From Gammaproteobacteria bacterium (GTDB lineage: Bacteria > Pseudomonadota > Gammaproteobacteria > GCA-001735895): a stretch of DNA of 51,306 bases. The notes under the pieces were generated by a model. The model searched no databases. It was given only the letters and a program-made list of their open reading frames with translations, and was not told the origin of the DNA. The position numbers were made by a program, and so were the translations under genes. The stretch is from the NCBI GenBank assembly GCA_050298595.1, contig JBNKUM010000108.1, positions 1-51,306 of the forward strand, read 5' to 3'. Positions 1-13,307 of the stretch are shown piece by piece. The stretch's first letter is position 1. Each line of letters begins with the position of its first letter.

Positions 1-696
1 AGCGGCTGCATAAGTCGCTGATGCAGTGAGAGAGCCTATGCCCAGGATTTCATCTAAGCGCTGGCAGATTTCATTGTCTTGATTCATCTGCTTAATCCGT
101 TGTTCGCAGGCTTCGAAACGTTGATTGAGCCCCTGTAATTCACCATAAAGCTCGGCGAACAACTCTCGGGCTAAGGGGGTTAAGCCATTCTCAGCATCTT
201 CCAGAATATCCGGTAAACCCTGACTCACTGATCGTATCCCTTTGTGGATGGCGACTCCGTATTCTGCCAATAGTCCTCGAACCTGATTGGCCAGTGCATT
301 GCGTTCTTTTTTGATGCGCTCTCGTTGCCGATGAAAGTTCTGAACATCCTGCTGTTCTATCGATTTGATCGGGACGAAGCGCATCGTCGGACGTTGTGCT
401 GCTTCGGCTATCGCTTCTGCATCGTTGTAATCATTTTTGTTGCCTTTCACGAAAGGCTTGACATATTGAGGGGTTATCAATTTAACCTCGTGCCCCAGCT
501 TCTTAAAGGCTCTTGCCCAATAGTGAGCACTACCGCAAGCTTCCATAACGATCAGACAGGGTTCTATGTTGGCCATATAGGGCATAACCTGATTTCGTTT
601 GAGTTGCTTCTTTTTCAATAAATGGCTTGTTTTACTCTGGGTAATTAAATGAAACACAGTCTTTGCTATATCCAGCCCAATTGTTGTAGTCTTCAT
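1..696 (-). CDS. IS110-family (IS1111-like) transposase, N-terminal 232 aa; runs off the window start
   Basis: Not in the ORF track. Manual translation from ATG at 696: MKTTTIGLDIAKTVFH...IVMEACGSAHYWAR...PQYVKPFVKGNKNDYNDAEAIAEAA.RPTMRFVP, the DEDD RuvC-like motifs of IS110 transposases; no stop to base 1. Confidence 0.93.
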   Translation of the reverse strand, partial: MKTTTIGLDIAKTVFHLITQSKTSHLLKKKQLKRNQVMPYMANIEPCLIVMEACGSAHYWARAFKKLGHEVKLITPQYVKPFVKGNKNDYNDAEAIAEAAQRPTMRFVPIKSIEQQDVQNFHRQRERIKKERNALANQVRGLLAEYGVAIHKGIRSVSQGLPDILEDAENGLTPLARELFAELYGELQGLNQRFEACEQRIKQMNQDNEICQRLDEILGIGSLTASATYAAA

Positions 697-787
697 TTCG
701 ATCCACTCCGCTTTTTAAATGGTTGTTAACGTTTCCATTTTGGCTCTTTTGAAGCCGGTATGAAAGTGGAGTGGGTCCATACCATTA
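697..787 (-). mobile_element. Left non-coding end of the IS1111-type element
   Basis: Minus strand begins TAATGGT-ATGGACCCACTCCAC, i.e. a 7-nt terminus followed by an ATGG-starting subterminal repeat as in IS1111/IS4321-type left ends. Confidence 0.65.
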
Positions 788-1255
788 TCCATCCATGCAG
801 TCGTGCACAAAGCTTCCGCTCCTGCTCACGCTCCTTACCTACGTCCATGTAGGCAACCTCTGCATTTACCATCCCGCAGTGATCTGGTTGGGCTTCGTCA
901 TGTTGGACCCAAATCGCTTCGCGGGGCCGGCTCTACTGACTCGCCCTGCGGTTCGGCCTGATGCAGTTGATTCGCAACATCCCTGTCGCTCACCCTTCGG
1001 GCCAGCTATCGCTGTTTAATATTGCTCCAGGCAATATTGATCTGTTCGTAGGCCCGCAGATTTGCACTCGGGCTTGACCGCCAGGGATGGTGGAAATGCA
1101 GATATTGCAGGACGCAATATATCTGTCTTTCCCACACTCTTCACAGAGCTGCAGTTGCCGTCGGCTAGTACTTTTTAAAGTATTCATTTATGATTACTCC
1201 CAGATAATGTACAGGGGACTTTCACCCCATAAGATCGTGCCCATGCCGGGCACAC
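788..1255 (-). ncRNA. Group IIC(-attC) intron, 5' ribozyme part, interrupted by small inserts and by the IS110 element
   Basis: Minus strand starts GTGTGCCCGGCATGGGCACGATCTTATGGGGTGAAAGTCCCCTGTAC, a typical IIC 5' end with a GGGG-TGAAA-GTCCCC hairpin; later blocks (GTACTAGCCGACGGCAAC, AAGCCCGAGTGCAAA, ACGAACAGA, GGTAAATGC) resemble IIC domains I-III; inserted after TTGT on the bottom strand of an attC site. Confidence 0.8.
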
Positions 1256-1333
1256 ACAATCACATGGACTCGGACAGCAAAAAGCGCCGCTCGTTCCTCG
1301 CTTCGCTTTTTGCTGCCGGTGATGTGAAGCGTT
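1256..1333 (+). mobile_element. attC integron recombination site (R'' split by the intron)
   Basis: ACAAT-CACATGGACTCGGAC-AGCAAAAAGCG...CGCTTTTTGCT-GCCGGTGATGTG-AAGC-GTT: long imperfect palindrome with L''/L' arms and terminal GTT. Confidence 0.75.
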
Positions 1334-1500
1334 GAGGCTGTAGGAAAACCTGTGGATAACTTTTCTATGTTAAAAAGTGAAGAGGAGAGTCGCCTCAAAT
1401 TTTCTTTGCAGTGGTTTAAGCAGTAAAAGATTTACGTACAGTTCCATTTTTCGGCGATTATTTTGCTCGAATTTTGGGGTCGATGTTTTTCTACACTCTC
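1334..1500. mobile_element. MITE with 16-bp imperfect TIRs (IS1182-like termini) inserted at the attC GTT
   Basis: GAGGCTGTAGGAAAAC (1334-1349) vs reverse complement of GTTTTTCTACACTCTC (1485-1500); GTT on both flanks (1331-1333, 1501-1503); family assignment is tentative. Confidence 0.65.
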
Positions 1501-1712
1501 GTTAGTGAACGTCCGCTTCGGGTTGACAGCGGTCATACACAACATTTTTTGGAATGTCTGCTATCTGGAAGTTAAGTTGGTAAATCTAAAAATAAGATGC
1601 AGATTTCCTGGTAAATCCAGAGTTAGCAATTTTCAATCCAGGTTTAACCACTGAAAATCTACTTTTGGGTGTGTTTCTCTGAGCTTCATGTAAACAGAAT
1701 AAACTTTATTGT

Positions 1713-3095
1713 CTATCCCAGCTTGCGCACACGAAACTTACGTCCCTTGATCTTGCCTTCGCTGAGAATTTTCAGCGCCTGTTTGGCGATGGGTCGCTCA
1801 ACAGCAACATAAGCCAGTTTGTCGAAGATATCGATTTTACCTATCTGTTTGCCGGGCAGGGCGGTATTGGCGGTGAGAGCGCCTAGTATGTCTCCGGCTC
1901 GAACCTTGTCTTTACGTCCGCCGCTAATCTGTAATGTCACCATCGGAGGACTGAGCCTGAAATTCTCTCGCATCTTGAGTTTTGAGGTGTTTTCTATTGT
2001 GACAGGGGTCTTCTGGAAGTCTTCAATCGCACTCACCCGACTGACCTCAGAGGGCATGAACAGACTGAGAGCCAGACCCTGATTACCCGCGCGTCCGGTG
2101 CGACCTATGCGGTGTATATGTACCTCAGGGTCATAAGCCAGGTCATAGTTGATGACTGCACTGAGGTCTTTAATGTCCAGTCCGCGTGCGGCGACATCGG
2201 TAGCAACCAGTATCGAACTGCTTTTATTCGAGAACTGTACCAGCACCTGATCGCGTTGCTGTTGCTCCAGATCACCGTGTAAGGCGATGGCATGGAAGCC
2301 CTCTTCCCAGAGTTGCTCAGCCAGCTCCTGGCATTGTTGCTTTCGATTGCAAAATACCACCGTAGATTCGGGGCGGTAATGATGTAGTAGGGCAATCAGT
2401 GATTGCAGGCGCTCTCCTTTATTGATTTCATAGAATATCTGTCGGATGTCTTTATCGTTGTGCAGGCTTTCCACCTGAATATCCACTGGTTTGTTCTGAA
2501 TATTCTGGCTGATGTGTTTTATCTCATCTGGAAAGGTGGCGGAAAATAGCATCAATTGCCGATTGGAAGGGGCTGCATCGATGATCTCCAGCATTTCTTC
2601 GTAAAAGCCCATGTCCAGCATACGATCAGCTTCATCCAGAACCAGAGCTTTAAGCTGGTCAATTTGAAGAGACTGTTTCTTTAAGTGCTTGATAATCCGA
2701 CCCGGTGTGCCAACCACGATATGCGGGCTGAACTCCAGTGAGGCGAGTTGTGGACCGATTGGGGTTCCGCCGCACAGGGTGAGAATACGGGTATTGGGTA
2801 TCGAGCGCGCCAGGCGACGGATTTCCTTGCTAACCTGATCGGCCAGTTCACGTGTTGGGCACAGCACCAGTGCCTGAGTAAAGGCATCGCGGGTATCTAT
2901 GGTCTGTAACAACGAGATAGCAAAGGCAGCTGTTTTACCGCTACCTGTTTTGGCCTGCGCCTGTATATCCTTGCCCTGTAGTAACACCGGTAGGCTTAGC
3001 GCCTGAATAGGCGTCATCGTGTGGTATTCCAGTGCAGTCAAATTGGCTAGAAAGTCGGTCGATAGATCGAGCGAGGCAAAGTCGTTAGCAGTCAT
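1713..3095 (-). CDS. dbpA: ATP-dependent RNA helicase DbpA
   Basis: Q motif, AKTGSGKT, PTRELA, DEAD, SAT, HRIGRTGR and C-terminal DbpA RNA-binding domain (GGRKDKVRAGDILGAL). Confidence 0.93.
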   Translation of the reverse strand: MTANDFASLDLSTDFLANLTALEYHTMTPIQALSLPVLLQGKDIQAQAKTGSGKTAAFAISLLQTIDTRDAFTQALVLCPTRELADQVSKEIRRLARSIPNTRILTLCGGTPIGPQLASLEFSPHIVVGTPGRIIKHLKKQSLQIDQLKALVLDEADRMLDMGFYEEMLEIIDAAPSNRQLMLFSATFPDEIKHISQNIQNKPVDIQVESLHNDKDIRQIFYEINKGERLQSLIALLHHYRPESTVVFCNRKQQCQELAEQLWEEGFHAIALHGDLEQQQRDQVLVQFSNKSSSILVATDVAARGLDIKDLSAVINYDLAYDPEVHIHRIGRTGRAGNQGLALSLFMPSEVSRVSAIEDFQKTPVTIENTSKLKMRENFRLSPPMVTLQISGGRKDKVRAGDILGALTANTALPGKQIGKIDIFDKLAYVAVERPIAKQALKILSEGKIKGRKFRVRKLG

Positions 3096-3352
3096 GTGGA
3101 TCCAGTATGGAGGTGGTTATAAGAAGCGCCATCAGGCAGGTGCCTATAATAACAGAATAAATTTTCGTGAACTTTATTTGTGTGGCTCATTAACCCGGCA
3201 ATGATTTATATGAAGTTCAGTGCGTTTGTTCGCGAGCAGTGTTAGCAGCTGTCACCGTGCTTTAGAGAAACGTCCAGAGTAATTTTGTCCAGAGATTTAT
3301 CGTAATGAATGATCCAGCCCTGTTCCTGTGTGGTGACTACTGAACTAATGCT

Positions 3353-3647
3353 CGAGTTGAAGTGTGCGTTTGCGATGCTGGAGATCAAGGCGTGACGACG
3401 CGGAATAGCGGACTATTCCAGGGAGTTACAAGGCTTCCTTACCTATGTCCCTATATGCAAGGCTTCCGCGTCCTGCTCACGCCCCTTACCTATGTCCCTA
3501 TAGGTAATGCAGAGATACGCCGCCTCAAACGTGCAATTTAGCTCGTAGCGGGATTTCACCTGCTGGGTGAAAGATAAATCTACTGTAATGCTCTACGAAA
3601 CAGTGGGGTGCCCTCTAACGCGAGCGGTCAACTGCGGAATCCAGGTT
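3353..3647. repeat. Composite palindromic MITE-like repeat carrying 1.6 copies of a 47-bp mini-element
   Basis: Core GATCAAGGCGTGACGACGCGGAATAGCGGACTATTCC and terminus AACTGCGGAATCCAGG shared with 6600-6698 and 11955-12049; 47-bp unit at 3461-3507, partial at 3432-3460. Confidence 0.75.
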
Positions 3648-3740
3648 CAGGCGTAGTGTTTGCTGTGAGTGATTAGTTTTTATGTCTTATAATTGGCTAT
3701 TCCATAACTTGATAGCACGCGAGCCTTATTCAATCATGGT

Positions 3741-5291
3741 ATGACGCTTGATATGACTAACCAGAACCTTTACCTGCGCCTTTCTGGCGATCGCTTTAAG
3801 CATGCTGGAGAGCGTCCATTTTTGATGACTCCAGGTCGGGCCCCGTTGATGTATGCCAGTCTTGATGCGGTCTGTGGAAAGATACAAAGCCGTTTGCAGG
3901 CACTAGGCGTTGAGCCCGGTGATAGAGTGATGGTGCAGCTTGACAAGTCAGCTGAAGCCGTTGTGCTGTACCTTGCCTGTTTGCGTGCTGGCGCTATATA
4001 CATCCCGCTGAACACGGCCTATACCACTGCCGAAGTGGAATACTTTATGAGAGATGCTGAACCCAGAGTGTTTGTCTGCCAGCCTGATTCACTGGATAAG
4101 CTAAAGGCTGTAGCAGAACAAGTGAGTGTGCCGCATGTGTTGACGCTAGATACTGAGGGGCAAGGTAGCTTTGTGCAGGGCCTTGATCAGGCTGATCCGA
4201 ATCCGCAAGTGGTTCAGTGTCGTGCTGATGACCTTGCTGCAATCCTGTATACCTCAGGCACGACCGGGCGCTCCAAGGGGGCCATGCTGAGTCATGCCAA
4301 TCTGCAATCGAATGCCGAAGAACTGCATAGCTACTGGCAATGGCAGGATGATACTGATGTGCTGTTACATGCCTTACCTGTCTTTCATGTACACGGGCTT
4401 TTTGTCGCATTGCACTGTGCTTTGCTGGGTGCTGCTCCGGTACACTTTTTGACGCGTTTTAATGTGGAGCAAGTCATCAGCTTGCTGCCTGAATCTAGCG
4501 TGATGATGGGAGTGCCCACTTTTTACACCCGCTTACTTGATAGCCGGGATTTCAATGCAGATGCCTGCAGCAATATGCGTTTGTTCATTTCTGGCTCAGC
4601 CCCGTTACTGGCGGAAACCCATCGTGAATTTGAAGCGCGTACCGGACATAGAATCCTGGAACGTTATGGTATGACTGAGACAGGCATGATTACCTCCAAC
4701 CCCTATGAGGGTGAGCGCGTCGCTGGCACTGTGGGGTTTGCACTGCCCGGTATTCAAGTACGCATCGCCGATGAGCAGGGTAAGGAACTGCCTCGTGGCG
4801 AAACCGGTGTGCTGGAATTGATCGGTCCAAATGTATTCAGGGGCTACTGGCGTATGCCTGAGAAAACTGCGGATGAATTTCGTGCGGATGGCTGGTTTAT
4901 TACCGGAGATATGGCGACGATGGATGCATCGGGAAGAATCTGTATTGTGGGTCGTGCAAAGGACCTGATTATTTCAGGCGGCTATAACATCTACCCTAAA
5001 GAAATCGAGGTTGAGATCGATGACATCCCTGGCGTGCGTGAATCCGCAGTGATTGGTCTGCCACATCTGGACTTCGGTGAAGCTGTGGCCGCAGTGGTTG
5101 TGCCGGATGGCAGTTGTACTCTGGCTGAGGCTGATATCATTCAAGCCTTACAGGATAAACTTGCAAGATTCAAACAACCCAGGCGTGTGTTTCTTGTCGC
5201 TGAACTACCACGCAATACCATGGGTAAGGTGCAAAAGGTACAATTGCGTGAAACCTACAAAGATTCATTCCAATCCAGAGAAGCGAATTAA
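3741..5291 (+). CDS. matB: Malonyl-CoA synthetase (malonate--CoA ligase), AMP-binding family
   Basis: YTSGTTGRSKG, HALPVFHVHGLFVA, MMGVPTFYTRLL, SGSAPL, ERYGMTE, GRAKDLIISGGYNIYPKE, PRNTMGKVQK match the MatB/ACSF3 clade; start may be 3753. Confidence 0.85.
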   Translation: MTLDMTNQNLYLRLSGDRFKHAGERPFLMTPGRAPLMYASLDAVCGKIQSRLQALGVEPGDRVMVQLDKSAEAVVLYLACLRAGAIYIPLNTAYTTAEVEYFMRDAEPRVFVCQPDSLDKLKAVAEQVSVPHVLTLDTEGQGSFVQGLDQADPNPQVVQCRADDLAAILYTSGTTGRSKGAMLSHANLQSNAEELHSYWQWQDDTDVLLHALPVFHVHGLFVALHCALLGAAPVHFLTRFNVEQVISLLPESSVMMGVPTFYTRLLDSRDFNADACSNMRLFISGSAPLLAETHREFEARTGHRILERYGMTETGMITSNPYEGERVAGTVGFALPGIQVRIADEQGKELPRGETGVLELIGPNVFRGYWRMPEKTADEFRADGWFITGDMATMDASGRICIVGRAKDLIISGGYNIYPKEIEVEIDDIPGVRESAVIGLPHLDFGEAVAAVVVPDGSCTLAEADIIQALQDKLARFKQPRRVFLVAELPRNTMGKVQKVQLRETYKDSFQSREAN

Positions 5292-5293
5292 TA

Positions 5294-5731
5294 ATGACCA
5301 GAGATGAGCTAGAGCAGCGTATCCGACAGGGTATTCCCCTGTCGGCGCAAATGGATTTTCGAGTGCTTGATCTGAGCCCTAACTCGATTCAGGTGCGAGG
5401 TGGCGGACAGCAAAATATCAATGTTCATGGTACAGCCTTTGCAGGATCACTTTATACCGTATGCACACTGGCAGCCTGGGGTCTGGTTAGTTCTCATCTG
5501 CCAGAACAGGCATCGCTGGTGATGGCTGAAGGAACAATCCGTTATCGTAAGCCGGTAGTTGGCGATCTTCTGGCCAGTTGTGAAGTATCGAGTCGTGAAA
5601 TGGATAGTTTTCTCAATTCATTGAATCAACGGGGTAAGGCGCGTCTGGTGGCAACGGTTTCAGTACCGTGTAATGGAGAAATTGCTGTGAAATTTTCGGG
5701 TACCCTTTATGCAAGCATAAATAAAGCCTGA
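5294..5731 (+). CDS. YiiD_C hot-dog-fold protein (MadB-like malonyl-thioester decarboxylase / thioesterase)
   Basis: IPLSAQM...NINVHGTAFAGSLYTVCTLAAWG...IRYRKPV is the YiiD C-terminal domain pattern; starts 2 nt after the matB stop. Confidence 0.8.
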   Translation: MTRDELEQRIRQGIPLSAQMDFRVLDLSPNSIQVRGGGQQNINVHGTAFAGSLYTVCTLAAWGLVSSHLPEQASLVMAEGTIRYRKPVVGDLLASCEVSSREMDSFLNSLNQRGKARLVATVSVPCNGEIAVKFSGTLYASINKA

Positions 5732-5823
5732 TCTAAATGAATCATAGCCGAGATGTGAATGGCTTTGACCCTAAATAAGCCCGGTCAGAAAAAGCCCAGG
5801 CCTTTTTCCCTGGAGTATTTTTA

Positions 5824-6582
5824 ATGGAATACAGTTTTGAAATTCTACTGTTCCTGTTTTTTGTGGCCATGCTGGCAGGGTGGGTGGATACCATTGCTGG
5901 TGGCGGTGGTTTACTGACTTTACCGGCCATGCTTTTATGCGGGGTCCCCCCGGCGGTAACTATAGCCACCAATAAAATGCAGGGCAGTAGTGGTACCTTT
6001 ATAGCTGCACTCTATTTCATCAGAAAGGGAGCCGTTAATTTGAAAGAAATGCGGCTTTCAATATTAATGACTTTTCTGGGTTCGATGCTAGGGAGCTGGT
6101 TAATACTGAAATTTAATCCAGAATTTCTTCTGCAATTTATACCGGTGATTTTAATTCTAGTAGGCCTGTATTTTCTGTTCGCGCCCAGAATTTCTGATCT
6201 TGACCGCGAACGCCGAATGGGAGTTATCGTCTTCTCTTTGCTTATCTGCCCTCTGCTTGGTTTTTATGATGGTTTTTTTGGACCGGGGACAGGCAGTTTT
6301 ATGGCGCTCGCACTCGTGACTCTATGTGGATATGGGCTGCCCAAAGCTACCGCTAATACGAAGATATTGAATTTCACCAGTAATATTTCAGCATTAATGT
6401 ACTTCATCTTATTCGGTGAAATTGCGTGGAAGGTTGGAGCGGTGATGATTGTTGGGCAGATGATAGGGGCTACGCTGGGAGCAAAAATGGTCGTTGAAAT
6501 TGGGTCTAGACTGATTAAGCCGGTAATCGTAATAGTATGTTTTGCAATGGCTTCAAGGATACTTTGGCAATCATTTAGCTGA
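5824..6582 (+). CDS. TSUP (TauE/SafE, YfcA-like) transporter
   Basis: AGWVDTIAGGGGLLTLP, ATNK, GFYDGFFGPGTGSF motifs; hydrophobic, 252 aa. Confidence 0.88.
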   Translation: MEYSFEILLFLFFVAMLAGWVDTIAGGGGLLTLPAMLLCGVPPAVTIATNKMQGSSGTFIAALYFIRKGAVNLKEMRLSILMTFLGSMLGSWLILKFNPEFLLQFIPVILILVGLYFLFAPRISDLDRERRMGVIVFSLLICPLLGFYDGFFGPGTGSFMALALVTLCGYGLPKATANTKILNFTSNISALMYFILFGEIAWKVGAVMIVGQMIGATLGAKMVVEIGSRLIKPVIVIVCFAMASRILWQSFS

Positions 6583-6599
6583 AATAAATTAAGGCAGCC

Positions 6600-6698
6600 C
6601 TGTAACTCCCTGGAATCGCCTGCTATTACGCATCGTCGCGCCTTGATCTATACCACCACAAACGCATTACAATTCGGCCAACTGCAGATTCCAGGATT
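6600..6698. repeat. Partial copy of the MITE-like repeat, without the 47-bp insert
   Basis: TGTAACTCCCTGGAATCGCCTGCTATT...GCCTTGATCT...CAAACGCA...AACTGCAGATTCCAGGAT matches 11953-12049. Confidence 0.7.
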
Positions 6699-6736
6699 AA
6701 GGATTACCAACTTCATTTTACTGATACTGGTTCCCC

Positions 6737-6752
6737 TGTGATGTCACTCACA
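6737..6752. promoter_or_regulatory. CRP/Vfr-type binding site
   Basis: TGTGA-TGTCAC-TCACA, perfect TGTGA-N6-TCACA, about 115 nt upstream of the Ig-repeat gene. Confidence 0.65.
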
Positions 6753-6867
6753 AAACTTAATTAAAACAATCAATTAAATACTGCTATCCTCAAAAAATTT
6801 GATATAAGTCCTGATAATTAGCGAAACTGAAACTATGCTTAACTGAGTTTTAATCATTGAGCGTGTT

Positions 6868-9537
6868 ATGCGTATTATCCAGGCCAATAAATGGTTTCAC
6901 TTTTTTCTTGTTGTAATCTTATCCATCACGATTTCAGCCTGTGGTGGAGGTTCCGACGGTTCGACAGTCGATCCAGTCGGTCAGGGAAATCCTACTCCTA
7001 CTCCTACTCCTACTCCTATTCCAGCGGCACGTAATCTTCAGCAGATCGTCATCAGCCCGTATCTGGATAGCGTTGCTAAAGGTGGACAGGTCCACTTTTC
7101 TACTATAGGTATTTACGACGACCAATCCAGTGAAGATATATCTGCAGATGTTATCTGGTCTGTGGATGATGAGACCCTGGCCAGTGTCGATACCAGTGGC
7201 AATGTGTTGCCCTTAAAAGCAGGTATGGTAACGGTATACGCCTCAACTAACGGATTGCAGGCTCAACGTAGCCTGACCATTAATGATGTGAGCCTGGATT
7301 CCATTCAGGTTATCCCTCAGCAGGTTGAGCTAGCTAATGGTATGCAGCAGACATTCCAGGCAATAGGAAATTACTCGGACGGCAGTACACAGGATCTTAG
7401 TCAACAGGTTTTATGGGGTAGTAGCGATACTCAGGTTGTTCAGATGGCTTCAGCAGTTGCACAAGGTAAGTCGGTAGGTTCAGCCATTATTTCGGCTTCA
7501 TTAGATGGAATATCTGGTCAGGCTATTTTGGGTGTGAATAGTGCTCAACTTCAACGTATCGAAATCACACTTAATACCCCGAGTTTGGAGATTGGCTTAA
7601 GCAGCTCGATATCCGTTCAGGGATTTTATAGTGATCAAAGTATTAGCGATGTCACTTCACTGGCCAGCTGGCAGATCGATGACACTTCGGTTATATCGAT
7701 TGATGCATCAACTGAAATTGTTAAGGCGCTAGCGGTTGGTACAGCAACCATTCAAGCCGATGTTTCTGGTTTTCAGGCGAATGTTTCGATCCAGGTGAAT
7801 GATGCGGTACTTAGCAAAATAGAAATTTCACCCGTTAATTCCAGTCTACCCGCTGGCTACAAACAACAGCTTCAAGCCACTGGCATTTACAGTAATCAAA
7901 CTTCACAGGATCTGACACAGCAGGTGACCTGGGTCTCAAGTAATGACGCGGTAGCAGAAATTGATAACCGTTTACTGTCTAAGGGTGAAGTTACTGCAGT
8001 TAACAAAGGTAGTACGATAATCACTGCCTATTTTGCAGGTAAGAGTGCTACTGCTGACTTGACAGTGAGTGATGCAGTATTGACGAGTATTGATGTAACA
8101 CCCTCCAGCAGTAAAGTCGCCATGGGGTTGCAGCAACAGTTCAAAGCTATAGCTCTGTATTCTGATGGGTCACAGACGGTTGTTACTGATAAGGTTGAGT
8201 GGAGTAGTGCTAGTAGTAAAGCGACATTGGTAGGAAGTAATAAGCCAGGCTTGTTTCAGGCAAACACTCAGGGCAATGTATTCATCATTGCAAAATTAAA
8301 TAATGAGCAAGGTTTTACCAGTCTTGAAATAACCAGTGCCACGCTCGACAGTCTGAGTCTGGAGCTGGAGACTGATAAGCAAGCCCTGGGTACAACTCAA
8401 CAGTTAATTGCCAGGGGGCATTACTCTGATGGAAGTAACGTAGAGGTAACTGATCAGGTAAATTGGGGAAGCAGCAATACATCGGTAGCTCGAGTGAGTA
8501 ATGCTGACGGAAGCAAGGGTCTGGTCACAGCCTTGTCCTCGGGCTCAGTCAGTGTTACGGCTCAATTTGAGTCAATACAGGCGAACCAGGCAGTAGAGAT
8601 TACGGCTGCAGTTTTACAGCAAATTCAAATTTCTGCTTCTTCGACAGATGTCTTTTATATCAATCAGCAGCGCACTCTGGGTGCGGTTGGTACTTATTCT
8701 GATGGTAGTACGCAAAGTCTAACCGGACAGGTACAGTGGATTAGTTCATCAGACCAGGTTGTTGCAGTGAGTAATGCTGGTGGTTCGCATGGGTTAATGA
8801 CGGCTTTATCTGCTGGTTTAGCAAGCGTTAGCGCCAGTTTTGCAGGCGTTGACTCGAATGCTCTGTCATTACAGGTTATAGATGATCCAAACCACCCTGC
8901 TTCTATCAGTATTTCTGCAACACCGAATGTGATTCTTAATAATGGCGCAGATTCAACAACCCTGCAGGCAACTATACAAGCGCTGCAATCTCAAGGTGTG
9001 ATCGTCGATGGTACTGAGGTTAACTTTATAATTCAGGAAGATGGTGGAACTCGTACAGTTGCTGCAACGACTGTGGATGGCGTGGCTAGTATAAGTTTAA
9101 CCTCAACATTCAACGGATTTATCCTGGTTACTGCTGAGGTTACAAATACTGATTTGAATGCCACTACAGCGGTTTACAGTACTGACAATTTTGTCCGAGT
9201 ATTACAGGTTGCCCGTGGCTCTAAAGTGGTACTTCTTGAGAATAACACGGTTTACCAGCAGGGTAGTCTGTTTGTGTTGTATATACGAAACCTGTCAAAC
9301 AGGGATTTTAATGTACTTGAGTTCCTGGTTAAGAATGGGGGTGTCGATTTCTCTGATTCACCAGTAACTGATATCGCATATCTCAGTGGAGGAGTGCTAG
9401 AGGGTGGAGAGTATACCGTTGCCGGTTATCAGCTGGATTTAGATACACCTAATAATACAATCAGTATGGAGTATATACTTCAGGATATCCCAAGCCAATA
9501 TAAATTCGGGTTTGGCGTCAACTTCAATACACCGTAG
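6868..9537 (+). CDS. Surface lipoprotein with 7 Big_2 Ig-like repeats, a Big_1-like domain and an unknown C-terminal domain
   Basis: Lipobox ISA-C25, PT linker, seven G.YSD.S..D.T.QV.W.SS repeats, then SATPNVILNNGADSTT...TTVDGVASISLTS. Confidence 0.85.
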   Translation: MRIIQANKWFHFFLVVILSITISACGGGSDGSTVDPVGQGNPTPTPTPTPIPAARNLQQIVISPYLDSVAKGGQVHFSTIGIYDDQSSEDISADVIWSVDDETLASVDTSGNVLPLKAGMVTVYASTNGLQAQRSLTINDVSLDSIQVIPQQVELANGMQQTFQAIGNYSDGSTQDLSQQVLWGSSDTQVVQMASAVAQGKSVGSAIISASLDGISGQAILGVNSAQLQRIEITLNTPSLEIGLSSSISVQGFYSDQSISDVTSLASWQIDDTSVISIDASTEIVKALAVGTATIQADVSGFQANVSIQVNDAVLSKIEISPVNSSLPAGYKQQLQATGIYSNQTSQDLTQQVTWVSSNDAVAEIDNRLLSKGEVTAVNKGSTIITAYFAGKSATADLTVSDAVLTSIDVTPSSSKVAMGLQQQFKAIALYSDGSQTVVTDKVEWSSASSKATLVGSNKPGLFQANTQGNVFIIAKLNNEQGFTSLEITSATLDSLSLELETDKQALGTTQQLIARGHYSDGSNVEVTDQVNWGSSNTSVARVSNADGSKGLVTALSSGSVSVTAQFESIQANQAVEITAAVLQQIQISASSTDVFYINQQRTLGAVGTYSDGSTQSLTGQVQWISSSDQVVAVSNAGGSHGLMTALSAGLASVSASFAGVDSNALSLQVIDDPNHPASISISATPNVILNNGADSTTLQATIQALQSQGVIVDGTEVNFIIQEDGGTRTVAATTVDGVASISLTSTFNGFILVTAEVTNTDLNATTAVYSTDNFVRVLQVARGSKVVLLENNTVYQQGSLFVLYIRNLSNRDFNVLEFLVKNGGVDFSDSPVTDIAYLSGGVLEGGEYTVAGYQLDLDTPNNTISMEYILQDIPSQYKFGFGVNFNTP
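6991..7017 (+). repeat. In-frame hexamer repeat (CCTACT)x4.5 encoding a PT linker
   Basis: cctactcctactcctactcctactcct. Confidence 0.9.
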
Positions 9538-9838
9538 AGTTTGATTCATTTCTGAATTCCGGATAGAGCCGCTCAACAATCTGCTAAAGAAGCGTCTGTT
9601 CCCGCCGGTGGTGTTGGTATGGTGGTGTAAGTGATGATCGATCTTTGATCGTTGTATAAAGCATGTGGCTCTCCTTTCTGTGGAGAGGCACATGCTCACT
9701 AAATATTCTCAGTGCGTATACTGTTTAATGCGATTACCAGAATTAATGGGTGGCCGTTTCCTGAAAAGGAGCTATTCACATTCTGGCCTTGAGTGACTAT
9801 TAAGACCCAATTCAGCCATTCCTGCCAGATCGTAGTGC

Positions 9839-9921
9839 CGTAAGATGTGCTGAGGTACGAACCGCATCATCCCTTCATCGTCCACAATTGATACGGTTCG
9901 CAAAGCTCACCACACCCTACG
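9839..9921. repeat. Degenerate REP doublet (REPIN-like, GTAG family)
   Basis: CGTAAGATGTGCTGAG...GAACCGCATCA paired with TGATACGGTTCG...CTCACCACACCCTACG as inverted arms. Confidence 0.6.
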
Positions 9922-10123
9922 TTTGTCTATGTACCGCACGTTACGAGTTATGTAGAAAAAATACAGTTAAAGTCGAGGCAGTGATGAGGATTAAATCGGA
10001 TCAATATCACACCTAAGAAAGCGGCTTTACATATAGGGTTGAAGAGTAAAGACCTCAGGCTGGATTCAGGTGTTAACCCATATCGGAAAATATGCTAATT
10101 ATCATCTTTTATATCGCAGAGAA

Positions 10124-10137
10124 TTGATTTAGGTCAT
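10124..10137. promoter_or_regulatory. Possible FNR-type box
   Basis: TTGAT-TTAG-GTCAT, 8/10 to TTGAT-N4-ATCAA, about 78 nt upstream of the cytochrome c start. Confidence 0.35.
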
Positions 10138-10214
10138 ATTGAGGTGATTTGGATAAAAAACCTTGTTTTAGTGAGAATATTATTCGTTATGGAAAATCTG
10201 ATAAGGAGATAATC

Positions 10215-10655
10215 ATGTTTAAATATAATTTGTTTAGAAAAATTGCTGTGTTATTAGGTGCAATCTCATTTCTAACAGTGTTTGGAGTTTCTGCACAAGA
10301 AGACTGGGGTACAGATCATATAGGTGAAGCGGCATTTCTGAAAAGCTGTGCAGCCTGCCATGGAGCAGATGGGAAAGGTACTGGACCAATATTAGATATT
10401 CTAAAACAGAAACCGGCTGATTTAACGACTATCAGTAAGAGAAATGGCGGAAAATATCCACAACAAAAAATTTATGCGTGGATAAGGGATCCGGAGAGAA
10501 TCAGAGCTCATGGTTCAGCGGAAATGCCTATTTGGGGTGAAAAGTTTAGCAAGGAGATAATTGAGTCTTATGGACCCTATTATACTGGTCCTGCCTGCTC
10601 GGTACAGGCTCGAATCCTTGAGCTGGTTTTCTATATCGGCACAATACAGAAATAG
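10215..10655 (+). CDS. Periplasmic monoheme cytochrome c
   Basis: RBS AAGGAG before ATG 10215, signal peptide, CAACH, PADLT, AHGSAEMPIWG (candidate Met ligand). Confidence 0.88.
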   Translation: MFKYNLFRKIAVLLGAISFLTVFGVSAQEDWGTDHIGEAAFLKSCAACHGADGKGTGPILDILKQKPADLTTISKRNGGKYPQQKIYAWIRDPERIRAHGSAEMPIWGEKFSKEIIESYGPYYTGPACSVQARILELVFYIGTIQK

Positions 10656-10756
10656 ATTAGAAGCGCTGCCAGTCTAAACGCAGTGATGGCGCTACATCGA
10701 CACGTTGTTTGCTATTGAGCGCGAACACATCAGAGAATTTTGTCCTCCTTGCAGAC

Positions 10757-10842
10757 CTTCAACGGTTAGGGTCACCGGGGAAATATAGCTACATAGCGGA
10801 GCGAAGTAGGTATATTTTCCCTGTGAATGCAATTTTAGTTGT
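10757..10842 (-). mobile_element. Degenerate attC-like site directly downstream of the OMP gene
   Basis: Minus strand ACTAAAATTGCATTCACAGGGAAAATATACCTAC-TTCGCTCCGCTAT-GTAGCTATATTTCCCCGGTGA-CCCTAACC-GTT: palindromic, attC-like layout but with the AAC core eroded. Confidence 0.5.
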
Positions 10843-10847
10843 GATTT

Positions 10848-11459
10848 TTAGAAAGCATAACTTAATGAAAGATAGACATTTGAAACATCAAATTTAGTAC
10901 TGACTTCAATATTACTTGTCGAACCAGTTCCCATCATTTTGTGATCAATATCAGATAAATGAACATTAACACCTGCGTCTAAAAATAATTGATTATCAAA
11001 TTTATACTCATACCCACCTCTAACCAATAGTCCCGTACCACTAGATGATGCAGCAGCAAAACCAATAGCTGCTTTATTTTCAATTTCAATACTAGTAAAG
11101 CCGCCACCAAGAAAAAAACCACGATGAGGACCAGAGATATTGAAAGAGTAATCTACAGATATGGATGTAGCGGTAACGGTAAACATTGATGAATCTTCTT
11201 CTTCGCCAGAAAAATAAGAAAAATTTATTCTATTAGTATCATTTAGAAATACACCAGCGATAAAACCAGAAGCCGTCCCTTCATCTCTTGTTTCGTCGGG
11301 TTGAGTTAAACTAAAACCAGTGCTTAAATTAGTTGCTGTAATTTCACTCCCATTGAGAGAAAAACCATTAATTGAAATGCCAATATAAGGTTGAAATTCA
11401 GCCGAAGAATTTGAGCTGACGCATGAAAGTAAAATGATTGAGAGTGCTGTTTTTTTCAT
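10848..11459 (-). CDS. Outer-membrane beta-barrel protein (OmpA-like/porin-type)
   Basis: Start MKKTAL (11459) with GGAG RBS, signal peptide, alternating beta strands, C-terminal LSLSYAF; visibly AT-rich. Confidence 0.8.
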   Translation of the reverse strand: MKKTALSIILLSCVSSNSSAEFQPYIGISINGFSLNGSEITATNLSTGFSLTQPDETRDEGTASGFIAGVFLNDTNRINFSYFSGEEEDSSMFTVTATSISVDYSFNISGPHRGFFLGGGFTSIEIENKAAIGFAAASSSGTGLLVRGGYEYKFDNQLFLDAGVNVHLSDIDHKMMGTGSTSNIEVSTKFDVSNVYLSLSYAF

Positions 11460-11618
11460 TTTATAACTCCACATCCTGTTGTTAAGAATCTAAGTCTATG
11501 AGTACGAAAAAAATGCAGATTTGTCTGAATTGAAAAGCGTAAACCTTTAATTTTCGATAAACAATAATCTATATTAATTTTCATGCCTACATTCACCCTT
11601 AACATCAGCAGAAACTGC

Positions 11619-11822
11619 CTTAACTCAGTGCTATTTCGCGCCGCAAGATGCGACGAGCTTTGCTCGGCGCGAAATGGTACTTTTATTTAACGTAAAAAAT
11701 GTCATCGCGAGTGACAACGCGGCACATGGATGTGCTGCCTACGAACCTGAGGATGGAATCTCTAACCTTGCCGAAACCCCACTGCCGAAGAGATTGTCAA
11801 GTAGTAAGCTCCTCGTAATGTC
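11619..11822. repeat. Two adjacent palindromic repeats (hairpin MITE-like and GTCAT.GCGAG REP-like), the second with a mini-insert
   Basis: TATTTCGCGCCG/CGGCGCGAAATG inverted pair; GTCATCGCGAG...ATCTC / GAGATT...CTCGTAATGTC inverted pair with CACATGGATGTG insert. Confidence 0.55.
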
Positions 11823-11850
11823 GCTTCATTAGTATTATGGGCAGGTCCGC

Positions 11851-12049
11851 GGAAGCCTTGCCTATAGGGACATAGGTAAGGGGCGAGAGCAGGACGCGGA
11901 AGCCTTGCCTATAGGGACATAGGTAAGGGGCGAGAGCAGGACGCGGAAGCCTTGTAACTCTCTGGAATAGCCCGCTATGCCGCGTCGTCACGCCTTGATC
12001 TACACCACCTCAAACGCACTACAACTCGTCCAACTGCGGAATCCAGGAT
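11851..12049. repeat. Tandem 47-bp mini-element (2 identical copies plus 10 nt) joined to the MITE-like repeat
   Basis: GGAAGCCTTGCCTATAGGGACATAGGTAAGGGGCGAGAGCAGGACGC at 11851 and 11898, partial at 11945. Confidence 0.9.
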
Positions 12050-12107
12050 AATAAATCCTTATATATTTGTAGTTGCATAAAAAACGATTTTTTTTCTTCG
12101 AATATTT

Positions 12108-13307
12108 CTATTTATCTAAGGAGGCTACATAGCTTGGTTGCCAAGCCAGGCCGACGAGCGCAGCTAAACAAAACACGACTCCTGCATAAAACGTGAACGA
12201 TGCGCCAAGTCTATCCCATATCAGCCCGGCTACTCCACTGGCCACCAGCATAGCGATTCCGCTCATAAGATTGAAGAAGCCGTATGCAGTGCCACGTAAA
12301 TCTACAGGTGCGGTATCAGCGATCATTGTTGAGAACAAGCCCTGAGTGATGCCCATGTGTACGCCCCAAAGTGCAATACCAACCATCATACCTCCCCAAT
12401 GCTCGTTGCTGGCGAGCACCAGGTCGGCGGCAATAAGAATCGCCAGACCAAGCGCTAACAGTTTGGTGTGGTTCAAGCGGTCAGAAAGTTTACCGAATGG
12501 ATAGGCTGACGCCGCATAGATCAGATTCATCGCAACCATCACCAGTGGCACCAGCGCTAAGGGAATACCTCCTTGCTGTGCACGAAGCACCAGAAACGCC
12601 TCGCTGAAACGTGCCAATGTGAATACGGCGCCTATTCCAACTACCCACCAATAGGGAGTTCCTAAACGCTGAAGGTTTTCTCTACGTATCGGATTGGAAC
12701 GCTTAATACCTTCATGACGTTCAGGCTCTCGCACACCGAACAAAAGCAAGATCACGGCCATCATTCCTGGAACGGCCGCGACCCAGAACACCGTCTGGAA
12801 GTCATTTGCCCATAGCAGCATCAATCCAACAGCAAGCAGGGGGCCAAGAAATGCGCCGACGGTGTCAAGAGACTGGCGTAGCCCGAAAGCAGCACCGCGT
12901 AGTTGAGGCGGAGTAATGTCGGCAATTAGTGCATCACGCGGTGCACCGCGAATTCCCTTGCCAAGACGATCCGCCAGTCTAGCGATAAGCACAATACCAA
13001 CGGTGGAGGCCATTGCAAACAACGGTTTAGTCAGGGCACCCAGTGCATACCCAAACAGGGCAAGCCCTTTGCGCTTGCCTAGATAATCACTCAGGACTCC
13101 TGAAAACACCTTAACAATCAGAGCGGTTGACTCTGCTAGCCCCTCAATGAGACCTACAGTAAAGACACTAACTCCTAGCGTTGTGACCATAAACAGGGGT
13201 AGCAGGCTGTGAATCATTTCGGAGGAAATGTCCATCAATAAACTAACGAAGCCAAGTACCCATACGCCAGTAGGGATATGACTCAAAGTTTTTGATTTCG
13301 TGGTCAT
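12108..13307 (-). CDS. MFS transporter
   Basis: Likely start MTTKSK at 13307; GVLSDYLGKRK and GKLSDRL motif-A copies, DRLGKGIRGAPRDALIAD, multiple TM segments. Confidence 0.9.
   Translation of the reverse strand: MTTKSKTLSHIPTGVWVLGFVSLLMDISSEMIHSLLPLFMVTTLGVSVFTVGLIEGLAESTALIVKVFSGVLSDYLGKRKGLALFGYALGALTKPLFAMASTVGIVLIARLADRLGKGIRGAPRDALIADITPPQLRGAAFGLRQSLDTVGAFLGPLLAVGLMLLWANDFQTVFWVAAVPGMMAVILLLFGVREPERHEGIKRSNPIRRENLQRLGTPYWWVVGIGAVFTLARFSEAFLVLRAQQGGIPLALVPLVMVAMNLIYAASAYPFGKLSDRLNHTKLLALGLAILIAADLVLASNEHWGGMMVGIALWGVHMGITQGLFSTMIADTAPVDLRGTAYGFFNLMSGIAMLVASGVAGLIWDRLGASFTFYAGVVFCLAALVGLAWQPSYVASLDK

What the first reader, a model, noticed from the sequence alone, without database searches (positions are those of the whole stretch)
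788..12049. Family of tiny (about 40-70 bp) dual-hairpin insertion elements with conserved TCC loops that colonise other structured DNA
Seen: several short inserts differ in their stems but share one layout: a hairpin with a (G/A)TCCT loop, then a hairpin with a (G/A)TCC(A/C)T loop, usually with a 2-5 nt flanking duplication. Copies: 811-856 (gcTCCTgc...cctacGTCCATgtagg, CAA on both sides); 1076-1129 minus (tattgcGTCCTgcaata...ccaccATCCCTggcgg, CTT duplicated); 3461-3507 and partial 3432-3460; 11851-11944 (two identical tandem copies); about 11722-11758 minus (ATCCT...gcacATCCATgtgc); remnant 788-804 (ATCCATgcag); and a variant at 969-1040 (ATCCCT first, then TCCAG loop, TTGAT duplicated). Every copy sits inside another palindromic element (intron, MITE, REP), none in a CDS; the MITE copy at 6600-6698 lacks the insert. 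Inference: a minimal non-autonomous mobile element recognised through loop sequence plus ssDNA structure by a trans-acting HUH (RAYT/TnpA-like) or IS110-type enzyme; the tandem copies could reflect re-insertion at its own junction. I do not know a formal description of this family.
Basis: partly seen in the sequence, partly recalled or inferred. Interest (0 to 1): 0.78.

Follow-up and report, generated by a model that had tools for sequence, protein, structure and literature searches.

The report
Tiny loop-targeting hairpin insertion elements
These are copies of a widespread family of roughly 47-base DNA hairpin modules that have been pasted precisely into the loops of other DNA hairpins, an unusually small and apparently undescribed kind of bacterial mobile DNA whose moving enzyme is still unknown.

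Summary
Six of the seven listed copies are small inserts or remnants. The seventh (1076-1129) is conserved group II intron structure.

The 47-nt unit at 811-856, 3432-3507 and 11848-11954 belongs to a superfamily with this layout: GGCT-N6-TCCTGCT-CGCYC-TACC, then a hairpin with an xTCCxx loop. The genome holds 159 copies, often in tandem or nested.

Paralogous and allelic empty sites fix the ends. The units lie in or beside the loops of other hairpins (a 237-nt TIR MITE, REPs, an intron, each other), mostly at C^T and often beside TCC.

A 48-nt sister type is nearly invariant across Pseudomonas, Shewanella, Marinobacterium and other Gammaproteobacteria. Its second stem covaries. It also occurs in frame inside genes such as E. 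coli pglX.

Tandem arrays grow by local duplication.

No autonomous copy was found. None of five intact RAYT-like genes is flanked by these hairpins, IS200 and IS1111 ends are unrelated, and there is no clear strand bias. A trans-acting HUH/RAYT-like enzyme is therefore my best guess, not a result.

I found no description in the open-access papers or Rfam. The scan has noted analogous tiny nested hairpins in other phyla, but not this family.

The parts
1..790 (-). 5' part of an IS110-family (IS1111-like) insertion sequence. The transposase ORF is 696..1 and continues on contig C53. The element sits in the ATCCAT loop of a type-i element, with AT on both sides.
   Evidence: Pfam PF01548, E 7.8e-18. 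tblastn continuation at C53:1-141. Junction sequences.
791..804 (+). 3' remnant (ATCCATGCAGTCGT) of a 48-nt type-i element that the IS has split.
   Evidence: It matches the 3' end of the type-i consensus. The 5' half is at C53, about 744-785.
811..856 (+). E1-B unit, 46 nt: AGCTTCC..TCCTGCTCACGCTCC..CCTAC-GTCCAT-GTAGG-CAA. CAA lies on both sides. It is inserted in a group II intron fragment.
   Evidence: nhmmer hit 811-856. The same intron site is filled in a Sedimenticola MAG (L074).
857..1262 (-). Fragment of a group II intron, the host of the inserts. 1076-1129 is its own conserved dual hairpin, not an insert.
   Evidence: Rfam RF02001 at 860-968(-), 31.2 bits against a gathering score of 32, E 2.8e-4. 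Alignment of 6 other intron copies.
967..1040 (+). Member of a ~72-nt repeat family with three hairpins (xTCC(x)T loop, TTCG loop, xTCCxG loop). It is an insert relative to the C74 intron copy.
   Evidence: 7 further matches; stems covary.
3340..3650 (-). Copy of the ~237-nt TIR MITE (its right TIR is missing) that hosts the E1 units.
3432..3507 (+). E1-A array: an internally deleted unit (3432-3460) and a full 47-nt unit (3461-3507), at the MITE site TTACAA^CGCAG.
6593..6697 (+). Right part of a MITE copy without any E1 unit.
11660..11847 (+). Copy of host repeat Z (a MITE-like element of roughly 120 nt when empty, by my estimate from the alignment).
11724..11757 (-). Short (32-34 nt) family member: C-ATCCT-N14-GCAC-ATCCAT-GTGC. 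It is inserted in repeat Z.
   Evidence: Four paralogous empty copies and two other filled copies.
11848..11954 (-). E1-A array: a 13-nt partial unit and two identical 47-nt units.
   Evidence: (D5, 100% identical).
11955..12052 (+). Right part of the MITE, with its TIR (..GTCCAACTGCGGAATCCAGG).

Best explanation
The units are members of a superfamily of 46-50-nt non-autonomous mobile DNA modules.

Layout. Each unit has a conserved 5' half, (TC)GGCT-N6-xTCCTGCT-N1-2-CGCYC-(N0-2)-TACC, which is a short or degenerate hairpin with a TCCT loop. It also has a 3' hairpin whose stem is free to vary while its loop keeps xTCCxx. The unit ends in ..CG (types i and ii) or ..GGCAA (E1).

Shown:
- They occur as exact 46-48-nt insertions relative to empty paralogous or allelic sites.
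- They land in or next to the loops of other hairpins: a TIR MITE, REPs, a group II intron, other small repeats and each other.
- The junction is mostly between a C and a T, and often at either edge of a TCC. Because each unit carries TCC loops of its own, it offers new targets, which gives nesting.
- Arrays of 1-3 strict 47-nt units, or 4 more loosely defined (C114), grow by duplication of the neighbouring unit.
- Type i is almost invariant across several orders of Gammaproteobacteria.

Inferred: single-stranded, hairpin-extruded DNA is cut and rejoined by an enzyme supplied in trans. My first choice is a Y1 HUH nuclease of the RAYT / IS200-IS605 kind. That enzyme would bind the hairpins and cut at N^T on the left flank and after ..CG at the right end. 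The unit would then leave as a single strand or circle and re-enter at another exposed C^T.

On the confidence figure: I put about 0.85 on these being, now or in the past, mobile insertion elements, and about 0.35 on the enzyme being a Y1 HUH nuclease. The figure given is for the statement as a whole.
For: Family and copy number:
- 159 nhmmer hits (89 E1, 70 type i/ii) on 58 of 119 contigs.
- The pattern occurs in 10 of 41 related genomes, with 0 hits for the reversed control pattern.

Exact insertions relative to empty sites:
- GGGCGTCC^TGCCC: 3 empty copies (C86, C67, C72) and 3 filled (C22, C103, C110).
- ATGCA^TCCATGCAT: empty copies include C15, C19, C67 and C94; more than 10 are filled.
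- C14 empty against C21 filled; C70 empty against C51, C56 and C100 filled; an E1 unit itself split at GTCC^T (C36, C49).
- MITE site: 5 empty and 24 filled among the 29 copies that have both anchors.
- A second host repeat: 1 empty, 4 single and 2 double.
- Repeat Z: 4 empty and 3 filled.
- E. coli pglX alleles: GGTTG^TCTGC empty in 2 aligned alleles, filled by exactly 48 nt in strain ZF34.
- A relative, G011, has at least 20 listed MITE copies whose two halves lie 3 nt apart, and only 2 E1-core hits in the whole genome.

Structure is selected:
- In the alignment of 48 distinct type-i copies, the four inner pairs of hairpin 2 pair in 47 of 48, with 4-20 double changes each. The covariation score is 0.369 against 0.088, with 0 of 500 shuffles as high. 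TCC is kept in 47 of 48 loops.

Targets:
- TCC lies within 5 nt of the junction in 36 of 95 instances (18 of 23 in this genome), against 474 of 5000 random sites.
- TCC together with a spanning hairpin occurs in 16 of 95, against 49 of 5000.
- The junction is C^T in 57 of 95.

Arrays:
- Adjacent units differ by 0.89 nt, units from different arrays by 2.50 nt. None of 2000 random pair sets had a mean as low.

HUH analogy:
- E. coli TnpA-REP cuts between C and T near a tagged hairpin and can transfer strands in vitro (passages of PMC3479197).
- This genome has 26 Y1_Tnp matches and 5 intact RAYT-like genes.
- Within the genus, element counts rise with RAYT-family matches (rho 0.66 over 14 genomes).
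Against: - No autonomous element was found. None of the 23 Y1 loci I checked has E-type hairpins nearby, and the flanks of the 5 intact RAYT-like genes carry other repeats or none.
- IS200-like ends are unrelated to the element ends.
- A search for split elements enclosing a gene found only nested small elements.
- 0 of 111 flank ORFs beside copies in other genomes matched a transposase family.
- G006 has 13 elements but only one RAYT-family match, and that gene's apparent equivalent (judged from match profile and ORF length, not tested) also matches in element-free relatives.
- There is no replication-strand bias for type i/ii (14 against 13) and only a weak one for E1 (10 against 22, p 0.05). 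IS608-type transposition, from my recall, shows a strong bias.
- The GTAG-like tag (CTACC read on the other strand) lies on the strand opposite the C^T junctions.
- The right end is G^T, not C^T.
- The three types differ in where they sit relative to TCC: before it, inside it or after it.
- The 95 junctions include paralogues and orthologues, so they are not independent events.
- A single E1 insertion into one MITE master copy, followed by MITE spread, is not excluded by the star-like tree.
Confidence: 0.42

Rival explanations
1. The units are mobile, but they are moved by an enzyme that is neither a Y1 HUH nuclease nor an IS110-type recombinase. It could be an unrecognised host or mobile-element nuclease or integrase that acts on hairpin loops.
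For: Every test that tried to link the units to a known transposase failed. The near-invariance of the 27-nt 5' half across orders suggests a conserved partner, whereas, as I recall, REPs and their RAYTs differ from one species to the next. There is no strand bias.
Against: No candidate gene was found. The argument rests only on the failure of the other tests, and those were limited to this genome and to 300-nt flanks elsewhere.
Confidence: 0.22
2. The units are miniature derivatives or passengers of IS110/IS1111-type elements. They would be moved as circles by a DEDD recombinase guided by a bridge RNA, with the short repeats at the junctions (TC, CAA, T) being the shared core.
For: An IS110-family element sits in the loop of one such hairpin in the window, with AT on both sides. 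Type ii and E1 carry 2-3-nt repeats at both junctions, and head-to-tail arrays share one repeat per junction. IS110-family elements are known to target REPs (title and abstract of PMC1525189, listing).
Against: The IS ends (GGATAATGGTATGG.. and ..GGGTCCATAT) are unrelated to the unit ends. Relative G010 (99% complete) has 27 units and no IS110 match at E<=1e-5, while G002 and G007 have IS110 genes and no units; the correlation is rho 0.44, p 0.12. Target flanks are very diverse, which fits poorly with guide-RNA pairing, and type i shows at most 1 nt of repeat.
Confidence: 0.1
3. The units are not transposed at all. They are modules of their host repeats, and their presence, absence and copy number reflect replication slippage, unequal recombination, gene conversion and deletion between short repeats.
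For: 40 of 51 unit loci abut the same MITE site. Array units are near-identical neighbours. The MITE tree cannot exclude a single origin. The filled copies of repeat Z and of the intron site may each stem from one event.
Against: The same unit, with the same ends, occurs in at least three unrelated E1 contexts (MITE, a second repeat, an intron) and in many type-i/ii contexts. These include a protein-coding gene whose other aligned alleles lack exactly those 48 nt. Going from 1 copy to 0 would need deletion between repeats of only 1-3 nt. G011 carries many MITEs and almost no units.
Confidence: 0.1
4. The TCC-loop hairpins are mainly functional sites, for example binding sites for a host protein or RNA-level terminator or stabiliser hairpins. 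Under this reading their conservation reflects that function rather than transposase recognition.
For: Loop conservation together with stem covariation is what a structured functional element shows. REPs are proposed to act in this way (abstract of PMC3733652). Copies are almost all intergenic.
Against: A function does not explain exact insertions into other hairpins, nesting, in-frame copies inside genes, or the 5' half being conserved as sequence rather than structure. This reading does not exclude mobility.
Confidence: 0.08

Closest known systems
REP / BIME / REPIN elements and their RAYT (TnpA-REP) Y1 HUH transposases (PMC3116915, PMC3479197, PMC3733652)
   Same: Both are short, high-copy, mostly intergenic hairpin repeats, and both form clusters and tandem arrays. 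RAYT cuts at C^T near a tagged hairpin, and most junctions here are C^T. A GTAG-like tag (CTACC on the other strand) lies next to hairpin 1. The genome is rich in RAYT-like genes.
   Different: Here the unit is two unlike hairpins in direct order, not an inverted REP pair. The loop (TCC) and a 27-nt non-palindromic half are conserved, rather than the stem. The units are exact insertions inside other hairpins' loops. No RAYT gene is flanked by them. One type is nearly identical across orders.
Cyanobacterial small dispersed repeats ('mobile nanoelements', Elhai et al. 2008).
   Same: Both are very small (tens of nt) repeats that appear as clean insertions inside other repeats, with no transposase of their own.
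   Different: The phylum and the sequences differ. From recall, SDRs are 21-27 nt and sit in heptamer arrays. Here the units are 46-50 nt, have two hairpins and go into hairpin loops.
IS200/IS605 elements and their ORF-less derivatives (PATEs)
   Same: Both have a hairpin near each end, insert next to a short specific sequence without a real target duplication (type i), and have a right end that resembles the target (TTG/TTG for E1, ..GA/..GA for type ii, read on the other strand).
   Different: The units are at most about half the length I would expect such a derivative to need. No parent IS has these ends. There is no strand bias.
REP- and attC-targeting IS110/IS1111 elements (PMC1525189, listing only)
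   Same: Both insert into hairpin repeats, and one such IS sits in a unit's loop in this window.
   Different: Those are 1.2-1.5-kb autonomous elements (size from recall). The units share no end sequence with the IS here.
Rickettsia palindromic elements (RPE) and Neisseria dRS3/NIME mosaics (as filed under CGTC families in PMC3733652, section 6)
   Same: Copies occasionally lie in frame inside genes: pglX, an IS5-type transposase and probably a tRNA ligase. The intergenic regions are mosaics of several nested repeats.
   Different: Here in-frame copies are rare (1 of 159). The sequence and layout are different.

Membership tests
REP / REPIN-RAYT system | A 20-40-nt imperfect palindrome with an unpaired GTAG (or CGTC) tag at its foot | tested here: inconclusive
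   CTACC (GGTAG on the other strand) is invariant or nearly so and precedes hairpin 1 on that strand. In type i, however, hairpin 1 is only a 2-3-bp stem, and type ii ends in ..GGCGTC. The layout does not match the family descriptions I read (PMC3733652, sections 5 and 6).
REP / REPIN-RAYT system | The replicative unit is two REPs in inverted orientation (a REPIN) | tested here: not met
   The unit is two different hairpins in direct order. Arrays are head to tail.
REP / REPIN-RAYT system | A cognate RAYT gene flanked by the repeat (a REPtron) | tested here: not met
   The 5 intact RAYT-like genes (NF047646, 46-88 bits) are flanked by other repeats or by none.
REP / REPIN-RAYT system | Cleavage between C and T | tested here: inconclusive
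   The left or target junction is C^T in 57 of 95 instances, but the right end is G^T, and the instances are not independent. No biochemistry was possible.
IS200/IS605-derived PATE | Ends identical to those of a resident IS200/IS605 element | tested here: not met
   The ends of the IS200-like copies (C101, C46, C71) show no similarity to the units.
IS200/IS605-derived PATE | Strong orientation bias relative to replication (this feature is from my recall) | tested here: not met
   Type i/ii: 14 against 13. E1: 10 against 22, p 0.05. The test used a GC-skew proxy on contigs.
IS110/IS1111 mini-derivative | Termini shared with an IS110-family element, and that element present in the genome | tested here: not met
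   The IS ends are unrelated. G010 has 27 units and no IS110 match.
Classical MITE (DDE transposase) | Terminal inverted repeats and a fixed-length target duplication | tested here: not met
   The units have no TIRs, and the flanking repeat is 0-3 nt depending on type. The host element, by contrast, is a classical MITE with ~20-nt TIRs and a 5-bp duplication.
Rfam RNA families | A match to a curated covariance model | tested here: not met
   There was no match over the units in the window or in 7 loci of other genomes.
Cyanobacterial SDR nanoelements | Sequence families SDR1-8 in STRR heptamer arrays (from recall) | not testable with these tools
   The paper is not held in the library. The resemblance is in behaviour only.

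The most novel reading that the evidence does not exclude
This is a distinct class of bacterial mobile DNA. At 46-48 nt its units are among the smallest known mobile units. They are defined by one conserved half-site plus a free-stem hairpin with a TCC loop, and they home to exposed loops of other hairpins (REPs, MITEs, introns, themselves) at N^T. They are moved by an enzyme not yet linked to any repeat family: either a RAYT acting on something other than a REPIN, or a new loop-specific nuclease or integrase. They spread between orders of Gammaproteobacteria, partly by riding inside mobile introns and defence genes.
Probability: 0.3. Interest if true: 0.85.

Novelty: new variant of a known kind. 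Interest (0 to 1): 0.68.

Why it matters
How REP-like repeats move is still largely inferred. Their ends are hard to define, because REPs rarely show clean filled and empty sites.

This family does give exact ends, exact targets, nested events and a sequence that is nearly the same in culturable Pseudomonas, Shewanella and Marinobacterium. That makes a direct biochemical and genetic test of small hairpin-repeat mobility feasible.

It also shows three further things:
- Hairpin loops are shared landing pads for several kinds of mobile DNA, including an IS110-family element in this window.
- Such units can sit in frame in genes, including a BREX methyltransferase.
- They can inflate and diversify other repeats. 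This matters for assembly, for repeat annotation, and for typing schemes based on intergenic repeats.

Tried and rejected
- Rfam at gathering score on the whole window, and at E-value threshold on 600-1700 and on 7 loci from other genomes. Nothing matched over the units.
- Literature:
  - A motif search with four 11-13-mers returned 33 papers holding one or more of them; the 15 listed were all unrelated.
  - Endozoicomonas/repeat/MITE returned 0 papers. That genus was only my guess.
  - REP/RAYT/nested and related term sets returned only the general REP papers.
- Earlier notes of this scan. The look-up by sequence returned one unrelated note. The look-up by words returned analogous tiny hairpin elements in other phyla, not this family.
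- Search for an autonomous copy:
  - Motif and hairpin scan around 23 Y1 loci.
  - Inverted repeats around 5 RAYT-like genes.
  - Repeats in their flanks.
  - IS200-like ends.
  - Split left and right halves up to 6 kb apart.
  - Pfam scan of 111 of the 183 flank ORFs extracted from loci of other genomes.
  - None gave a candidate.
- The REP that flanks a RAYT in relative G011, near one of its two E1 units, occurs only twice in this genome and never beside its RAYT-like genes.
- Public runs. Only assembled contigs were on hand, and they break at the repeats. They gave no usable evidence on excision, circles or copy-number change. One joint showed an intron variant in which 1076-1154 is replaced by 29 other letters; that variant is not present in this genome.
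- MITE tree mapping filled and empty sites. The tree is star-like (1 starred branch of 26), the 5 empties are scattered, and one origin is not excluded.
- Strand bias against GC skew showed no clear signal.
- Orthologous sites in relatives. The intergenic region at 3165-3749 is about 4.5-4.7 kb longer in G001 and G010, so no simple filled/empty comparison was possible.
- I considered and rejected CRISPR, integron attC, tRNA-like and retron readings. There are no spacers, no GTTRRRY core and no Rfam match. The first two reasons are my own reading of the sequence, not a test.

Full report
**What is at the coordinates**

The window is contig C108 of a 5.49-Mb, 45% G+C genome in 119 contigs. I did not name the organism. 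Other carriers of related elements are Gammaproteobacteria.

The stretch 700-12100 holds 6 perfect-stem hairpins with [GAT]TCC[ACT]?T loops. The mean in 200 dinucleotide shuffles is 0.34, with a maximum of 2.

Genome-wide there are 7385 hairpins with stems of 5 bp or more and 6-nt loops, with 1902 loop types. The four commonest loops are GTCCCT (49), GTCCAT (22), ATCCCT (20) and ATCCAT (20).

**The 47-nt unit (E1)**

The two identical copies at 11848-11941 have 73 blastn-short matches at 51 loci. nhmmer finds 89 E1-type copies.

The variant at 811-856 (E1-B, 46 nt) has CCTAC-GTCCAT-GTAGG. Another variant has CCTAA-ATCCCT-TTAGG. The fifth stem pair therefore changes on both sides.

40 of the 51 loci abut one side of the '105-nt MITE'. 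That MITE is really the right part of a classical element of about 237 nt, with ~20-nt terminal inverted repeats (CCTGGATTCCGCAGTTGAC) and 5-bp target duplications.

Among the 29 MITE copies that have both anchors, 5 have no unit, 13 have one, 8 have two and 3 have three. The empty site reads ..GGAGTTACAA^CGCAGAG...

A relative in the same genus, G011, has at least 20 listed MITE copies whose halves lie 3 nt apart. It has only 2 E1-core hits in its whole genome. G000 has 78 such hits and G001 has 156.

E1 also occurs at CAA in two further contexts:
- A second hairpin repeat: 1 empty copy, 4 single, 2 double.
- A group II intron fragment: window 811-856. The same intron site is filled in a Sedimenticola MAG, locus L074.

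On the other strand the target reads GTTG^ in all three contexts.

**A wider superfamily**

Searching for the conserved core TCCTGCT..CGCYC showed sister types of 48 nt.

Type ii is TCGGCTCTGGCTTCCTGCTTCGCCCTACCA-CCTAC-GTCCAT-GTAGG-CG, with TC at both junctions.

Type i is TCGGCTC(T/G)GGC(A/T)TCCTGCTTCGCYCTACCTC-CTGC-ATCCAT-GCAG-TCG.

E1 aligns with both along its whole length: 12 nt before TCCTGCT and 30-31 nt after it.

nhmmer finds 70 type-i/ii copies. The total is 159 on 58 of 119 contigs.

Clean paralogous filled and empty pairs fix the ends:
- GGGCGTCC^TGCCC
- ATGCA^TCCATGCAT
- GCAAGC^TCCTCGC
- TTTGC^TCGGCAAC
- GCGTCC^TGCTC, inside an E1 unit
- TTCC^TGCTTCGC, inside another type-i/ii unit

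Nesting reaches three or more levels in single MITE copies, for example C1 and C60.

**Other listed copies**

*11724-11757.* This is a shortened member, absent from 4 paralogous copies of its host repeat.

*967-1040.* This belongs to a ~72-nt family with seven further matches in the genome. It carries TCC loops on covarying stems and is missing from the C74 intron copy.

*791-804.* This is the 3' end of a type-i unit. Its ATCCAT loop was hit by an IS110-family element: window 1-790 (PF01548, E 7.8e-18), continued on C53, with AT on both sides.

*1076-1129.* This is different. The block is conserved, with compensatory stem changes, in six diverged intron copies, so it is intron structure. One copy (C96) does have a type-i unit in that very loop.

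**Distribution**

The 27-nt form (type i) occurs in Pseudomonas/Ectopseudomonas, Shewanella, Marinobacterium, Colwellia, Paraglaciecola, Thiohalophilus, Sedimenticola, one Endozoicomonas and many gammaproteobacterial MAGs.

The 28-nt matches in Actinobacteria look like chance matches inside a conserved coding sequence. I left them out of all counts.

Among 41 relatives, 10 carry the pattern. The reversed control pattern gave 0 hits.

An alignment of 48 distinct type-i copies from other genomes shows:
- a nearly invariant 5' half (partly imposed by my search pattern);
- TCC in 47 of 48 loops;
- strong covariation in hairpin 2: score 0.369 against 0.088 in shuffles, 0 of 500 as high, and 0.021-0.093 when the partner columns are slid.

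In Pseudomonas 12 copies sit in the loop of the resident REP, GGCTT^YAGC.

Copies also occur inside genes:
- In E. coli ZF34/ZF31, and on a Salmonella and a Moellerella plasmid, a 96%-identical copy lies inside the BREX gene pglX. Two other pglX alleles lack exactly those 48 nt at GGTTG^TCTGC. Only 2 of 5426 E. coli genomes have a copy.
- In this genome 1 of 159 copies lies in frame, in an IS5-type transposase gene.

**Target rule**

I reconstructed the sites of 95 type-i/ii instances, 23 from this genome and 72 from others.
- TCC lies within 5 nt of the junction in 36 of 95 (18 of 23 in this genome), against 9.5% of 5000 random sites.
- TCC together with a spanning hairpin occurs in 16 of 95, against 1%.
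- The junction is C^T in 57, T^T in 15 and A^T in 9.

These instances include paralogues and orthologues, so the counts describe the family and are not independent events.

The types differ in where they sit relative to TCC. Type i lies 3' of it (TCC^T). Type ii lies 5' of it or inside it (^TCC or TC^C). E1 lies at CAA^C.

**Arrays**

There are 48 strict 47-nt units in 30 arrays: 17 single, 8 double and 5 triple. Adjacent units differ by 0.89 nt on average, and units from different arrays by 2.50 nt. None of 2000 random pair sets had a mean as low.

Arrays therefore grow by copying the neighbouring unit. Re-insertion next door and slippage both fit this.

**Mechanism**

*Shown.* Exact insertion, a preference for loops, conserved loops with free stems, nesting, local array growth and spread across orders.

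*Inferred.* A trans-acting enzyme works on extruded single strands. I favour a Y1 HUH nuclease of the RAYT / IS200-IS605 kind, for four reasons:
- The layout is a miniature of an IS200/IS605 element: a hairpin near each end, a right end that resembles the target, and no true duplication in type i.
- E. coli TnpA-REP cuts at C^T near a tagged hairpin and can transfer strands (passages of PMC3479197).
- This genome has 26 Y1_Tnp matches, with 5 intact RAYT-like genes.
- Within the genus, element counts rise with RAYT-family matches (rho 0.66 over 14 genomes).

*Against this.* 
- No RAYT-like gene is flanked by these hairpins.
- IS200-like ends differ from the element ends.
- I found no split element that encloses a gene.
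- 0 of the 111 scanned flank ORFs in other genomes (of 183 extracted) matched a transposase family.
- There is no clear strand bias.
- The GTAG-like tag lies on the strand opposite the C^T junctions.

*The IS110 alternative.* This is weaker still. The IS ends are unrelated, and G010 has 27 units and no IS110 gene.

*The passive reading.* A module of host repeats does not explain identical ends in unrelated contexts or the pglX allele.

**Comparison and novelty**

The family works like REP/BIME/REPIN elements and, from recall, like cyanobacterial 'nanoelements'. It fails the membership tests for REPIN (no inverted pair, no REPtron), PATE, IS110 derivative and classical MITE.

I found no description in six literature searches or in Rfam. 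I could not see figures or supplements of the REP surveys, nor Elhai et al. 2008.

Earlier notes of this scan report analogous tiny nested hairpin elements in archaea, Patescibacteria and Prevotella, but not this family.

I rate this a new variant of a known kind, with a fair chance that the enzyme or mode of targeting is new.

Noticed in passing
window 1-790 (-), continued at G000 contig C53:1 to about 750: An IS110-family (IS1111-like) element with subterminal inverted repeats (TATGGACCCACTCC) is inserted in the ATCCAT loop of a type-i hairpin, with AT on both sides. The long 3' non-coding part would fit a bridge RNA (that point is from recall).
   Followed up: partly
window 857-1262 (-); locus L074: A group II intron fragment (Rfam RF02001, 31.2 bits, just under the gathering score of 32) carries an E1 unit at the same site as a homologous intron in a Sedimenticola MAG. 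The unit may therefore travel between genera inside a mobile intron.
   Followed up: partly
loci L156, L158, L159 (E. coli pglX): A 48-nt type-i copy lies in frame in the BREX-1 methyltransferase gene pglX of E. coli ZF34/ZF31, and also on a Salmonella and a Moellerella plasmid. The same allele has a separate 30-nt deletion just downstream.
   Followed up: partly
G000 C115:55345-55392 (locus L160:1046-1093): A type-i unit lies in frame inside an IS5-type transposase ORF and adds 16 residues (..TTV|HDCKDAGGRAKQEARAE|EKNITYPTD..). I identified the gene family by eye, not by a family scan.
   Followed up: partly
locus L111 (genome contigs): The 48-mer lies in a frame that is open across the whole 624-nt locus, and the frame matches the tRNA-ligase anticodon-binding domain (PF08264) in two stretches. 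This is probably another in-frame copy in a housekeeping gene.
   Followed up: no
G000 C74:13798-14634 (locus L141): An intact RAYT-like gene (263 aa) is flanked by 34-nt terminal inverted repeats, like the 'TIRYT' genes of PMC3733652. It lies about 700 nt from another copy of the intron. A further RAYT-like gene (C94:869-1570) is preceded by tandem AATAATAGGGGACAGACCACGGTTTATTGA repeats, with up to 14 other matches in the genome.
   Followed up: partly
window 1256-1333: A further palindromic repeat (..CAGCAAAAAGCG..CGCTTTTTGCTG..) has about 7 other copies in the genome. It is unrelated to the TCC-loop family.
   Followed up: no
window 11488-12358: This stretch is 99% identical to a whole 871-nt contig of relative G001. 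Neighbouring genes are only 86-91% identical to G001. That suggests recent exchange, or a mis-binned contig.
   Followed up: no
window 44193-44276: An imperfect tandem repeat of 15-nt period (CCATTTCCATTTC..), unrelated to the finding.
   Followed up: no
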